Assembly: GCF_001548275.1 (NCBI RefSeq)
Contig: NZ_AP014945.1
Location: 1,140,001-1,172,000 of the forward strand
Source of the DNA: Caldimicrobium thiodismutans
GTDB taxonomy: Bacteria > Desulfobacterota > Thermodesulfobacteria > Thermodesulfobacteriales > Thermodesulfobacteriaceae
Reading direction: 5' to 3'
Length of the DNA stretch: 32,000 nt
Of this stretch, positions 1 to 1,505 are shown one piece after another. The translations under genes and the position numbers were made by a program. Every line of letters begins with the position of its first letter. Position 1 is the stretch's first letter. Below the pieces are notes generated by a model. The model saw only the letters and a program-made list of their open reading frames with translations. It had not been told where the DNA came from and did not search any database.

Positions 1-547
1 ACCCGTAACTCCAAACTGGGGTTACGCAGAAAGGCCTATGGAGGCCCTCTTATGTTAAATCCTTGGTATGTAACAGGACTTTGTGAGGGAGAAGCCTCTT
101 TTAGTGTAAGTTTTAATTTAAGAAATAAGTTAAATGTTGGTATAGAGACCAAGCCTTCCTTTTCCATAACCTTAAATCGAAGAGATTTAGAGCTTATAAA
201 AGAAATTTATAAGTTTTTTGGTTGTGGAGGGATAAGGTATTCAAGGCCTGATAGATGTTATAAATATGAGGTTAGGTCTGTTAATGACCTTGTAGAAAAA
301 ATTATTCCGCATTTTGAGGAGTATCCTTTACAAGGAGCTAAAAAAAGGGATTTTGAGCTATTTAAAAAAATATGTCTTATGGTAAGAGCGAATTTACATC
401 TTTCTTTTAAGTATTTACCTGAAATTATTGATTTTGCTTATCAAATGAATGAGAGTGGTAGAAGAAGGTATACTAAGGAGGATCTCCTAAGGGTTCTTGG
501 TGGTGTGAAGGGATAGTCTACCCCTTGCCGAAAGGCTTGAGAGGGTG
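1..547 (+). mobile_element. 3' portion of an intron (group I-type, inferred) interrupting the 23S rRNA gene; 5' part lies upstream of the window
   Basis: Positions 1-547 have no 23S colinearity and are AT-rich apart from short structured ends: CGTAAC/GTTACG hairpin at 4-26 and a GCC-GAAA-GGC tetraloop hairpin at about 527-536. The segment contains a LAGLIDADG ORF. Base 547 is G (expected terminal G of a group I intron). Conserved 23S sequence AAGTTCCGACCTGCATGAATGGCGTAACGA starts at 548. Confidence 0.65.
52..516 (+). CDS. LAGLIDADG-family homing endonuclease, single-motif (homodimer-type), intron-encoded
   Basis: 154-aa ORF with ATG at 52. It has an N-terminal LAGLIDADG-type motif WYVTGLCEGEASFSV and the downstream pattern IIPHFEEYPLQGAKKRDFELFKKI typical of rRNA-intron endonucleases. 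It is embedded in the non-rRNA insertion within the 23S gene. Confidence 0.85.
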   Translation: MLNPWYVTGLCEGEASFSVSFNLRNKLNVGIETKPSFSITLNRRDLELIKEIYKFFGCGGIRYSRPDRCYKYEVRSVNDLVEKIIPHFEEYPLQGAKKRDFELFKKICLMVRANLHLSFKYLPEIIDFAYQMNESGRRRYTKEDLLRVLGGVKG

Positions 548-1505
548 AAGTTCCGACCTGCATGAATGGCGTAACGACTGCCGCGCTGTCTCAGCCAGGG
601 GCCCAGCGAAACTGTAGTCTCGGCGAAGATGCCGAGTACCCGCGGTGGGACGGAAAGACCCCGTGCAGCTTTACTGCAGCTTGGCATTGAATCTTGGGGT
701 AGGATGTGCAGGATAGGTGGGAGGCTATGAAGCGGGGGCGCCAGCTCCCGTGGAGCCACCGGTGAGATACCACCCTTCCTGCCTCAGGGTTCTAACCTGC
801 GGGAGTAAGCCTCCCGAGGGACAGTGCCTGGTGGGCAGTTTGACTGGGGCGGTCGCCTCCTAAAGGGTAACGGAGGCGCCCAAAGGTCCCCTCAGGTGGT
901 ATGGAAATCCACCGTTGAGTGTAAGGGCATAAGGGGGCTTGACTGCGAGGCTGACAAGCCGAGCAGGGGGGAAACCCGGGCCTAGTGACCCGGTGGTCCT
1001 GTGTGGAAGGGCCATCGATCATCGGATAAAAGTTACGCCGGGGATAACAGGCTGATTGCTCCCAAGAGTTCATATCGACGGAGCAGTTTGGCACCTCGAT
1101 GTCGGCTCATCCCATCCTGGGGCTGAAGAAGGTCCCAAGGGTCGGGCTGTTCGCCCGTTAAAGGGGTACGTGAGCTGGGTTCAGAACGTCGTGAGACAGT
1201 TCGGTCCCTATCCACCGCGGGCGCAGGAGGCTTGAGGGGAGCCGCCCCTAGTACGAGAGGACCGGGGTGGACGCACCTCTGGTGGCCCGGTTGTTCCACC
1301 AGGAGCAGAGCCGGGTAGTCATGTGCGGAAGGGATAACCGCTGAAAGCATCTAAGCGGGAAGCCCACCCCAAGATAAGGCCTCCCGAGGGTGGGGCAACT
1401 CACCCCCTAAAGGGCCCAGGGAGAACACCTGGTTGATAGGCCGGAGGTGGAAGCCCAGTAATGGGTGGAGCTTACCGGTACTAATCGCCCGTGCGGCTTG
1501 GCTGC
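548..1505 (+). rRNA. rrl: 23S rRNA, 3' exon (equivalent to E. coli about 1952-2904; domains IV-VI)
   Basis: Colinear by eye with conserved 23S blocks: GACGGAAAGACCCCGTG, GGATAACAGGCTGAT, GTTTGGCACCTCGATGTCGGCTC, GCTGAAGAAGGTCCCAAGGGT, AGTACGAGAGGACCGG (sarcin-ricin region) and GGATAACCGCTGAAAGCATCTAAG. The length of about 958 nt compares with 953 nt for E. coli 1952-2904. The 3' end is approximate. Confidence 0.93.

What the first reader, a model, noticed from the sequence alone, without database searches (positions are those of the whole stretch)
1..548. 23S rRNA gene interrupted by an intron carrying a LAGLIDADG homing endonuclease, inserted at about E. coli U1951/A1952
The window opens in AT-rich, non-rRNA sequence that encodes a 154-aa single-motif LAGLIDADG protein (YVTGLCEGEASF). 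At 548 the sequence switches abruptly to GC-rich 23S sequence, AAGTTCCGACCTGCATGAATGGCGTAACGA. The universally conserved context is ...CUUGUCGGGU|AAGUUCCGACC, so the 3' exon starts at the A1952 equivalent, and base 547 is G, as expected for a group I terminal G. From 548 to the 23S end is about 958 nt, against 953 nt in E. coli, so there is no second insertion downstream. Only 31 nt separate the ORF stop from the splice site. They contain a GCC-GAAA-GGC tetraloop hairpin, so the ORF must overlap or abut intron core elements. rRNA introns are rare in bacteria; reported cases include Thermotoga, Coxiella, Simkania and a few cyanobacteria. Helix 69-71 of domain IV is a known insertion hot spot, and Coxiella is reported to carry a LAGLIDADG-encoding intron at L1951. 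A thermophile homing endonuclease with a defined rDNA target is also of enzymological interest.
Basis: partly seen in the sequence, partly recalled or inferred. Interest (0 to 1): 0.6.

Follow-up and report, generated by a model that had tools for sequence, protein, structure and literature searches.

The report
Group I intron in 23S rRNA
The only 23S rRNA gene of this heat-loving bacterium is split by a 740-base self-splicing-type (group I) intron carrying an intact homing endonuclease gene; this is a further example of a known mobile element, best known from Coxiella and common in uncultured bacteria.

Summary
Reading upstream in the window's genome shows a 740-nt insertion (G000:C1 1139808-1140547; window -192 to 547) in the 23S gene. 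It lies exactly between the U1951 and A1952 equivalents and ends in G. The genome has one rrn operon, so the insert must be removed from every 23S transcript.

Rfam's Intron_gpI model does not detect this copy. Twenty-nine homologous inserts at the same site, from Omnitrophota, CPR and other metagenome genomes, allowed a comparative model. It has P1 with a U.G wobble at the splice site, the P3/P7 pseudoknot, P4-P6, P7.1/P7.2, P8, a GNRA-capped P9 and a terminal G. On 31 core pairs, 93.9% of cells pair, against 30-40% when partners are slid. Nineteen pairs show compensatory changes, and 0 of 500 shuffles match.

The 154-aa LAGLIDADG ORF sits in the P8 loop. Its last codons form the 3' strand of P8 and its stop codon lies in P7. 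Metatranscriptome contigs contain the intron, and one ends exactly at the terminal G.

Splicing and endonuclease activity are inferred, not shown. This is a new member of a known kind; the closest known case is the Coxiella L1951 intron. Another window of this scan had already flagged the same ORF.

The parts
1..3 (+). Last 3 nt of the P8 5' strand. The strand is CACCACC at L001 6997-7003. The first 193 nt of the intron (P1, P3-P7.2, P3') lie upstream of the window at L001 6808-7000, which is G000:C1 1139808-1140000.
4..46 (+). Two local hairpins in the P8 loop, ahead of the ORF: CGUAAC/GUUACG (4-9/21-26) and GGCCU/AGGCC (33-37/42-46). The second holds the Shine-Dalgarno GGAGG (40-44), 7 nt before the ATG.
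   Evidence: read from the sequence; pairing by inspection, not tested by covariation
52..516 (+). Single-motif LAGLIDADG homing endonuclease ORF, 154 aa, inside loop L8. The motif is GLCEGEASF; E14 aligns with the motif Glu of the I-OnuI-type N-terminal domain (AEG in chain 4z1x_A).
499..505 (+). P8 3' strand (GGUGGUG), formed by the last codons of the ORF.
   Evidence: cognate P8 strands pair over a mean of 8.5 bp, against 3.1 bp for non-cognate strands, with 20 distinct strand sequences
506..513 (+). J8/7 junction (UGAAGGGA). The GAA is invariant in all 30 relatives.
   Evidence: invariant columns G712, A713, A714
514..519 (+). P7 3' strand (U-AGUC-U). It pairs with A-[C bulge]-GACU-G at L001 6931-6937 and overlaps the TAG stop codon (514-516). 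The G-C pair next to the bulged C is the presumed guanosine-binding site.
   Evidence: the four central pairs are invariant in 30 of 30 sequences, so they carry no covariation information
527..536 (+). P9 hairpin, GCC-GAAA-GGC (GNRA tetraloop).
   Evidence: all 3 pairs show changes on both sides, 98% paired; relatives have GCAA, GUAA or GAAA loops on unrelated stems
547..547 (+). Terminal G (omegaG), the last base of the intron.
   Evidence: The insert ends in G in all 30 aligned inserts at this site. The RNA contig in run X3 ends exactly here, while the DNA contig runs on.
548..1505 (+). 23S rRNA 3' exon, starting at the A1952 equivalent. AAGU (548-551) can pair with ACUU of the guide sequence to form P10.
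   Evidence: P10 by inspection
1565..1681 (+). 5S rRNA gene (context: the end of the single rrn operon).

Best explanation
This is a mobile group I intron of IA-like architecture (P7.1/P7.2 present, no P2). It is inserted after the U1951 equivalent (helix 71, domain IV) of the only 23S rRNA gene, and it carries an intact single-motif LAGLIDADG homing endonuclease gene in the loop of P8.

**Inferred mechanism**
1. The pre-23S transcript folds so that the exon end GGGU, plus the intron start aagu, pairs with the internal guide ACUUGCCC. This is P1, with U1951.G at the cleavage site.
2. Free guanosine bound at the G-C pair of P7, next to a bulged C, attacks after U1951.
3. The terminal G (window 547) then enters the same site.
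4. The 3' exon AAGU replaces the intron's aagu on the guide, forming P10.
5. The exons are ligated, which restores helix 71.

The endonuclease has its own GGAGG ribosome-binding site. It would act as a homodimer that cuts intronless 23S rDNA around GTCGG-GTAAGTT-CCGAC, so that repair copies the intron in (homing).

**Shown here:** the position, the boundaries, an intact ORF of the right family, conservation and covariation of the ribozyme core, the presence of the intron in RNA, and an RNA end at the terminal G.

**Inferred only:** self-splicing, exon ligation in this organism, and endonuclease activity and target.
For: **Position and necessity of removal**
- The insertion lies exactly at U1951|A1952 of a 23S gene that is otherwise complete.
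- There is a single rrn operon in a complete 1.81-Mb genome, so the insert must be removed or tolerated in every ribosome.

**Homologous inserts**
- Twenty-nine further inserts, with junctions located, sit at the same site in unrelated taxa.

**Covariation**
- For P1, P3, P4, P5, P6, P7 and P9, 93.9% of cells pair, against 29.5-40.3% when the partners are slid.
- 19 of 31 pairs show changes on both sides, and 0 of 500 shuffles reach any of the five measures.
- P3 and P7 cross, as in the group I pseudoknot.
- The pair at the splice site is U.G in 27 of the 28 sequences with letters there.
- The exon and guide co-vary: G-C in 19 sequences, A-U in 7, U-A in 1.
- P8 cognate strands pair over 8.5 bp on average, against 3.1 bp for non-cognate strands.

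**Independent fold and Rfam**
- The unconstrained MFE fold of the 5' half reproduces P1, P3, P4, P5/P5a, P6, P7.1 and P7.2 (-95.7 kcal/mol, z = -5.07).
- Rfam Intron_gpI gives a sub-threshold hit on a homologue (29.1 bits, E=4e-5).

**Endonuclease**
- Pfam LAGLIDADG_1 at E=1.7e-24.
- 448 homologues at E<=1e-10, of similar length.
- The best PDB matches are I-OnuI-family enzymes, with the motif Glu aligned.

**RNA data**
- Intron contigs are present in two metatranscriptome runs.
- One contig stops exactly at 7547, while the DNA contig continues into the exon.

**Distribution and precedent**
- The endonuclease was found in G000 plus one distant hit among 201 genomes sampled from the phylum.
- The 14 relatives whose 23S matched at this place show no sign of this intron; eight fetched loci (L019-L027 except L023) align straight across the site.
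- The Coxiella L1951 intron (720 nt, 157-aa LAGLIDADG) is reported to splice (PMC1995217 Table 1; PMC4990558).
Against: - Rfam's curated group I model gives no match on this copy, even at E<=10 on a 1.5-kb search. Homologues stay below the gathering score (17.3 and 29.1 bits against 50).
- The four central P7 pairs are invariant, so they carry no covariation information.
- No RNA evidence assigns ligated exons to this organism. The ligated-type junction seen in the runs (TGTCGGGT before 7548) could come from intronless neighbours in the mat community, and it also appears in the DNA run.
- All the read evidence comes from assembled contigs of mixed communities.
- The motif reads GEA where the closest relatives compared (L002-L009) have GEG. 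The effect of that change is unknown.
- With a single rrn copy there is no target within the genome, so homing needs DNA exchange between cells. That has not been shown for this organism.
Confidence: 0.88

Rival explanations
1. It is a group I-derived intron that no longer splices by itself in vivo. It would need a protein helper, such as its own LAGLIDADG protein acting as a maturase or a host RNA chaperone or helicase, or it would splice inefficiently and slow ribosome production.
For: - The copy lacks P2, which most relatives have.
- The ORF's 3' end overlaps P8 and P7, so translation and folding compete.
- A LAGLIDADG protein with maturase activity (I-AniI) is cited in PMC1995217.
- A helicase role in Coxiella intron splicing is suggested by the title of Hicks 2011, cited in PMC4990558.
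Against: - All core helices and junction nucleotides are conserved and co-vary.
- The ribozyme part is 56% GC with three GNRA loops, which suggests a stable fold of its own at high temperature.
- The Coxiella L1951 intron is described as self-splicing (PMC4990558).
Confidence: 0.08
2. It is an intervening sequence (IVS): the insert is cut out by RNase III or another nuclease without ligation, leaving a fragmented but functional 23S rRNA.
For: - Rfam Intron_gpI does not match this copy.
- RNA contigs stop at the insert's 3' end, which a plain cleavage would also produce.
- IVS elements are known in bacterial 23S genes, including Coxiella's (PMC4990558).
Against: - Known IVS sites named in the papers read here are elsewhere: helix 45 in Coxiella (PMC4990558), and sites other than the group I intron sites in CPR 23S genes (PMC11270868).
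- The insert has a complete, co-varying group I core with a U.G splice-site pair and a terminal G.
- It carries a homing endonuclease typical of group I introns.
- A permanent break between U1951 and A1952, in the loop of helix 71, has no reported precedent that I know of (from memory).
Confidence: 0.03
3. It is a fixed, decaying element: the ribozyme still splices, but the endonuclease is inactive and the intron is now inherited only vertically.
For: - There is a single rrn copy, so there is no target within the cell.
- The motif reads GEA instead of the GEG of the closest relatives compared.
- The cycle of gain, degeneration and loss is the accepted model (PMC1995217).
Against: - The ORF is full length (154 aa, against 151-161 aa in relatives) with the aligned motif Glu kept.
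- The strain variant seen in the runs differs by six substitutions, which are synonymous or conservative (K>R, N>K), and it keeps the frame open.
- Relatives in the same genus with an assembled 23S lack the intron, which argues for recent gain rather than old fixation.
Confidence: 0.15

Closest known systems
Coxiella burnetii Cbu.L1951 group I intron (720 nt, 157-aa single-motif LAGLIDADG ORF)
   Same: - Same insertion site (L1951).
- Nearly the same intron and protein size (740 nt and 154 aa here).
- Same endonuclease family.
- The host also has a single rrn operon (PMC4286197 abstract).
- Reported to be spliced from pre-23S and to be a stable RNA (PMC1995217 Table 1; PMC4990558).
   Different: - The host here is a free-living thermophile of another phylum, not an intracellular pathogen.
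- Only one intron is present in the 23S here, whereas Coxiella also has L1917 and an IVS.
- Direct sequence comparison with the Coxiella intron could not be made: no tool gave me that sequence, and the primary paper (PMC2045182) is not held.
- Its subgroup assignment is therefore not compared.
rRNA introns with LAGLIDADG genes of CPR bacteria and Omnitrophota (Brown 2015, as cited in PMC11270868; PMC11270868 itself)
   Same: - The nearest sequence relatives found here come from these groups: endonuclease 70% identical in an Omnitrophota MAG and 45-52% in CPR MAGs.
- They sit at the identical 23S site with the same ribozyme core.
   Different: - Those hosts are uncultured and mostly not thermophiles.
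- Their ribozymes are AU-richer (34-49% GC, against 56% here) and most have a P2 hairpin that this copy lacks.
- PMC11270868 does not name position 1951 in its main text. Its insertion-site list (Fig. S1) was not examined.
L1917, L1931 and L2593 group I introns of Thermotoga, Simkania and thermophilic Synechococcus, and of organelles
   Same: - Same kind of element: a 650-775-nt group I intron in domain IV or V of 23S with a single-motif LAGLIDADG gene in a peripheral loop.
- Patchy distribution that points to horizontal transfer (PMC1995217).
- Relatives of the window's organism carry inserts at L1931 (G020) and near L1917 (G084).
   Different: - Different insertion sites, and therefore different guide sequences and endonuclease targets.
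- According to PMC1995217, introns and endonucleases cluster by site.
I-OnuI-family and single-domain LAGLIDADG endonucleases with solved structures (e.g. 4z1x, 4efj, 5gkk, 3e54)
   Same: Clear sequence similarity over the whole domain: E=3e-39 to two-domain enzymes, 3e-22 to the 170-aa chain 5gkk, and 3e-14 to the archaeal rRNA-intron enzyme 3e54. The motif acidic residue aligns.
   Different: - The best-scoring solved enzymes are monomers with two domains. This protein has one domain and must dimerise to make one active enzyme.
- Target specificity is unknown.

Membership tests
Group I intron | P1 helix between the 5' exon end and an internal guide sequence, with a U.G wobble at the 5' splice site | tested here: met
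   GGGU|aagu pairs with acuugccc. The splice-site pair is U.G in 27 of 28 sequences with letters there, and the exon and guide co-vary (G-C 19, A-U 7, U-A 1).
Group I intron | P3-P7 pseudoknot and the P4-P6 domain, in the canonical order P3-P4-P5-P6-P7-P3'-P8-P7' | tested here: met
   - P3 is 99% paired, with 4 of 5 pairs changed on both sides.
- P4 is 94% paired (4 of 5), P5 87% (4 of 4) and P6 93% (3 of 3).
- P3 and P7 cross.
- The MFE fold of the 5' half gives the same helices.
Group I intron | P7 with a guanosine-binding G-C pair next to a bulged nucleotide | tested here: inconclusive
   The expected geometry is present: A-U, a bulged C, then G-C, A-U, C-G, U-A. It is invariant in 30 of 30 sequences. 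Invariance gives no covariation support, and binding cannot be tested in silico.
Group I intron | Terminal guanosine (omegaG) at the 3' splice site, and a P9 hairpin | tested here: met
   All 30 aligned inserts end in G. All three P9 pairs co-vary. An RNA contig ends at this G.
Group I intron | Match to the curated covariance model (Rfam RF00028) at its gathering score | tested here: not met
   - No hit on the window's copy at E<=10.
- Homologues score 17.3 and 29.1 bits, against a gathering score of 50.
- The same model finds the other introns in those 23S genes, at 39.9 and 55.3 bits.
- I read this as a model-sensitivity limit (a roughly 490-nt loop in P8, plus the P7.1/P7.2 extension), not as evidence against membership.
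Group I intron | Guanosine-dependent self-splicing with exon ligation | not testable with these tools
   Only indirect evidence: the intron is abundant in RNA runs, an RNA contig ends at omegaG, and a ligated-type junction is present but cannot be assigned to this organism.
Subgroup IA (Michel-Westhof classification, from memory) | Extra helices P7.1 and P7.2 between P7 and P3' | tested here: inconclusive
   - Two hairpins occupy that position in this copy: CCC-GAAA-GGG, and a 9-bp stem with a 16-nt AU loop.
- The relatives also have an insert of variable length there.
- MAFFT columns are not structure-aligned in that region (51-60% paired), so covariation was not established.
- No assignment to IA1, IA2 or IA3 is made.
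LAGLIDADG homing endonuclease (single-motif, homodimeric) | One LAGLIDADG_1 domain with the motif's catalytic acidic residue, of full length | tested here: met
   - Pfam PF00961 at E=1.7e-24, covering profile positions 2-102 of 102.
- E14 aligns with the motif Glu of the I-OnuI-type N-terminal domain.
- The 154-aa length matches the 151-161 aa of relatives.
LAGLIDADG homing endonuclease (single-motif, homodimeric) | Site-specific double-strand cleavage of the intronless allele | not testable with these tools
   Intronless target alleles with the identical site sequence exist in relatives of the same genus and family. They could serve as substrates.
L1951 intron lineage (Coxiella Cbu.L1951) | Sequence homology of the ribozyme and endonuclease to the Coxiella element | not tested
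   The Coxiella sequence could not be obtained with the tools. Same site, size and endonuclease family are taken from PMC1995217 Table 1.

The most novel reading that the evidence does not exclude
After excision, the intron RNA is not simply degraded. It accumulates well above the level of its flanking rRNA in mat metatranscriptomes. Its terminal G also attacks an internal GGU|U site inside the endonuclease ORF (L001 7272|7273), giving a 275-nt circle made of the ORF's 3' half plus P8', P7' and P9. That would be an unusual internal circularisation of a bacterial group I intron, and it would cut the endonuclease message. The stable RNA might also act on the ribosome, as has been proposed for Coxiella's introns.
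Probability: 0.1. Interest if true: 0.55.

Novelty: new member of a known kind. Interest (0 to 1): 0.35.

Why it matters
**A culturable host.** If the genome is that of a cultured isolate, as its single closed contig suggests, this puts an L1951 group I intron with an intact endonuclease in a free-living thermophile that has one rrn operon. Splicing would then be obligatory for every ribosome and could be studied directly. That is not possible in Coxiella (an intracellular pathogen) or in uncultured CPR and Omnitrophota.

**Useful reagents.** A GC-rich ribozyme without P2, and a small endonuclease with a defined rDNA target from a thermophile, are plausible reagents and structural subjects.

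**A detection gap.** The standard Rfam group I model misses this whole L1951 family. In the CPR survey, 55% of 23S insertions were not called group I introns by that model (PMC11270868), so some of them may be introns of this kind.

None of this changes the current understanding of group I introns.

Tried and rejected
**Rfam**
- Intron_gpI on the full locus and on a 1.5-kb slice gave no hit. I judged this a sensitivity limit rather than evidence of absence.
- The other weak Rfam hits in the slice are far below their gathering scores and were dismissed as chance: c-di-GMP-II-GAG at L001 7711-7779 (inside the 3' exon), mir-3478, TMV_UPD-PK3 and HCV_SLVII.
- Two multi-source Rfam calls failed internally. 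Single-source calls were used instead.

**Tools and papers not available**
- The primary Coxiella paper (PMC2045182) is not held, and 'Cbu.L1951' finds nothing in the library.
- The protein atlas added nothing beyond 'LAGLIDADG endonuclease'.

**Analysis corrections**
- The first structure string used one bracket type and mis-paired P3 with P7. It was corrected with square brackets.
- The first regex anchoring for P8 hit the wrong places. It was redone with alignment columns.
- G022's apparent extension into the intron (query 1-74, 89% identity) is a spurious alignment extension. Its 23S is intronless at this site.

**Read data**
- In DNA run X1, the joint 6813 to 6924 ('skips 110, between: not known', side 30) most likely reflects a divergent strain. 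It is not used.
- Parts of the stretch without cover in the RNA runs are not interpreted.

**Other**
- A group II intron was considered and rejected. The insert leaves only about 250 nt of non-coding RNA, which is too small for a group II ribozyme, and it has the group I core.
- My guess that the organism is a Caldimicrobium or Thermodesulfobacteriaceae isolate comes from memory of genome size and GC and from the hot-spring mat runs. It is unverified and not used. Literature searches on those names plus 'intron' found nothing relevant.
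Full report
**1. What is in the sequence**

- The window opens inside an insertion. Bases 1-547 are AT-rich (23-34% GC over the ORF), while the rRNA that follows is 58-70% GC.
- The Rfam LSU model aligns confidently only from about base 548. The 23S ends at 1505, and a 5S gene follows at 1565-1681.
- ORF 52-516 encodes 154 aa with one LAGLIDADG_1 domain (E=1.7e-24).
- The window is G000:C1:1140001-1172000 of a closed 1,814,952-bp genome with 38% GC.
- I fetched 7 kb upstream as L001, so window position = L001 position minus 7000.
- The 23S gene spans L001 4743-8505, which is 3763 nt against a 2925-position model.
- The model alignment shows one large insertion, between ...GCGAAAUUCCUUGUCGGGUAAG and UCCGACCUGCA.
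- By E. coli numbering, which I derived by counting from the modified positions U1939, C1962 and 1915 (my own knowledge), the 5' exon ends at U1951 (L001 6807). The insert is L001 6808-7547 (740 nt), and the 3' exon starts at A1952 (window 548).
- AAG occurs at both ends, so the sequence alone leaves three alternative boundaries.
- BLAST of the 16S, the 23S and the insert against the whole genome finds one copy of each. The insert therefore sits in the only 23S gene.

**2. Relatives**

- The endonuclease has 448 homologues at E<=1e-10 in the large protein collection. The 120 best share 62-80% identity and are 151-202 aa long, most of them 151-167 aa.
- Scans of genome and metagenome contigs returned 16 and 67 loci.
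- I located exon junctions in them by BLAST and by motif. Thirty distinct inserts, G000's included, lie exactly between the ...GGGT and AAGTTCC equivalents. They are 677-903 nt long, and all end in G.
- Their hosts are labelled Omnitrophota (endonuclease 70% identical), several CPR lineages, and a deltaproteobacterial and a gammaproteobacterial MAG.
- In the window's own lineage the element is sporadic:
  - Of 40 relatives, the 14 whose 23S matched at this place show no sign of this intron; eight fetched loci (L019-L027 except L023) align straight across the site.
  - Of 201 genomes sampled across the phylum, only G000 and one distant hit (35% identity) have the endonuclease.

**3. Is it a group I intron?**

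Rfam's Intron_gpI gives nothing on this copy. I therefore modelled the RNA by comparison (alignment A1) and tested the model.

In G000 the elements are as follows, with index = L001 position minus 6795:

| Element | Index | Notes |
|---|---|---|
| P1 | 9-16 / 21-28 | GGGU\|aagu with acuugccc |
| P2 | none | most relatives have a P2 hairpin |
| P3 | 33-37 / 196-200 | |
| P4 | 43-47 / 93-97 | |
| P5, P5a | 51-55 / 85-89 and 60-66 / 75-81 | |
| P6 | 103-113 / 118-129 | GUGA loop |
| P7 | 138-141 / 720-723 | bulged C137 |
| P7.1 | 144-153 | GAAA loop |
| P7.2 | 157-165 / 182-190 | |
| P8 | 202-208 / 704-710 | |
| P9 | 732-741 | GAAA loop |
| Terminal G | 752 | window 547 |

Results of the tests:
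- On 31 core pairs, 93.9% of cells form standard pairs, against 29.5-40.3% when partners are slid by 1-3 columns.
- 19 pairs have changes on both sides, and no shuffle out of 500 reaches any of the five measures.
- P3 and P7 cross, as in the group I pseudoknot. A first attempt with nested brackets mis-paired them.
- The splice-site pair is U.G in 27 of 28 sequences, and the outermost exon-guide pair switches G-C, A-U and U-A together with the host's rRNA sequence.
- P8 was tested separately, anchored on P3' and on the invariant GAAG. Cognate strands form 8.5 bp on average, against 3.1 bp for non-cognate ones, with 20 different strand sequences.
- An unconstrained fold of the 5' 206 nt reproduces P1, P3, P4, P5/P5a, P6, P7.1 and P7.2 (z = -5.07).
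- Rfam's model does give weak hits on homologues (17.3 bits in L004, and 29.1 bits at E=4e-5 in L005). It also detects other introns in those same 23S genes. I read the miss as a sensitivity limit of the model.

**4. Anatomy of the ORF**

- The ORF and two small hairpins fill the loop of P8.
- The second hairpin holds GGAGG, 7 nt before the ATG.
- The last codons (window 499-505) form the 3' strand of P8, and the TAG stop (514-516) lies in the 3' strand of P7.
- Ribosomes finishing the ORF would therefore unfold the catalytic core. This is an inference. It suggests that translation occurs on spliced-out intron RNA or competes with splicing.
- The protein aligns over its full length with both halves of I-OnuI-family enzymes (E=3e-39) and with single-domain enzymes (5gkk, 3e54). 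E14 aligns with the motif glutamate.

**5. RNA evidence (assembled contigs only, mixed communities)**

- **DNA run X1:** one contig runs from 6924 through the 3' junction to 7577, and another bridges the 5' junction. Intron and exon depths are similar (38 against 29-51).
- **RNA runs X3 and X4 (one microbial-mat sample):** intron contigs have depth 153-278, against 8.5-40 for the organism-specific exon contigs.
- **RNA 3' end:** one X3 contig ends exactly at 7547.
- **Ligated-type junction:** TGTCGGGT directly before 7548 is present, but it also appears in the DNA run and could belong to intronless neighbours.
- **Reading:** these are weak hints that the RNA is cut at the predicted 3' splice site and that the free intron is stable. 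The depth difference could also reflect rRNA depletion of the library.
- **Unexplained joint:** the same X3 contig continues from 7547 into 7273-7308. This is a circle-type joint, seen once.

**6. Thermophile features**

The ribozyme part is 56% GC here and in the Omnitrophota relative, against 34-49% in the others. The loop with the ORF is 34% GC.

**7. Comparison with known elements**

- PMC1995217 (Table 1) lists Coxiella burnetii L1951: 720 nt, 157-aa LAGLIDADG. It states that introns and endonucleases at one rDNA site are usually each other's closest relatives.
- PMC11270868 shows that rRNA insertions are very frequent in CPR bacteria. Rfam classifies only 45% of their 23S insertions as group I introns.
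- The element here is therefore a further member of a known lineage, in a new host group.
- I found no paper reporting it.

**8. Verdict**

- Confidence that this is a group I intron with a homing endonuclease gene is 0.88.
- Self-splicing and endonuclease activity remain to be shown.
- Novelty: new member of a known kind. Interest: 0.35.

Noticed in passing
L097 355-1024 (G020:C3, about 658054-658723): A genome of the same family but another genus has a different 23S intron: an insertion of about 670 nt after the U1931 equivalent. It carries a 161-aa LAGLIDADG ORF (L097 534-1019, motif VVGFVDGEGCF). This is the L1931 site known from Thermotoga, Simkania and Synechococcus.
   Followed up: partly
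L096 about 1364-2090 (G084:C2): A genome of the same phylum has an insertion of about 727 nt in its 23S near the 1917/1918 equivalent. It holds the distant endonuclease homologue (35% identity).
   Followed up: partly
L004 2050-2748 and L005 about 2404-2667: The deltaproteobacterial MAG and a CPR MAG that share the L1951 intron carry a second intron a few dozen bases upstream in the same 23S (near L1923 in L004). Rfam Intron_gpI detects these at 39.9 and 55.3 bits, while their L1951 introns score only 17.3 and 29.1 bits.
   Followed up: partly
L008, L052, L054 (5' junction): Three related inserts from gammaproteobacterial-type contigs have C instead of U as the last exon base (GTCGGGC|aag) and a different guide segment (AAACCCGAC). 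Either a C-G pair replaces the U.G wobble, or the splice site is shifted.
   Followed up: no
L001 7273-7547 (window 273-547), RNA run X3: One metatranscriptome contig joins the intron's terminal G (7547) back to 7273, inside the ORF. The site is preceded by GAGGU. This could be a truncated group I circle, an RT template switch or an assembly artefact. It was seen in one run only.
   Followed up: partly
window 111, 128, 152, 153, 252, 285 (L001 7111-7285): The intron copy in the DNA and RNA runs differs from the genome at six ORF positions. The changes are S20S, K26R, K34R (two changes in one codon), D67D and N78K. A closely related strain therefore carries the same intron with an open, conservatively changed ORF.
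   Followed up: partly
window 13551-13624 (+) and 24087-24158 (-): Two tRNA genes were found by the Rfam scan of the window (64 and 68 bits). They are ordinary and unrelated to the finding.
   Followed up: no
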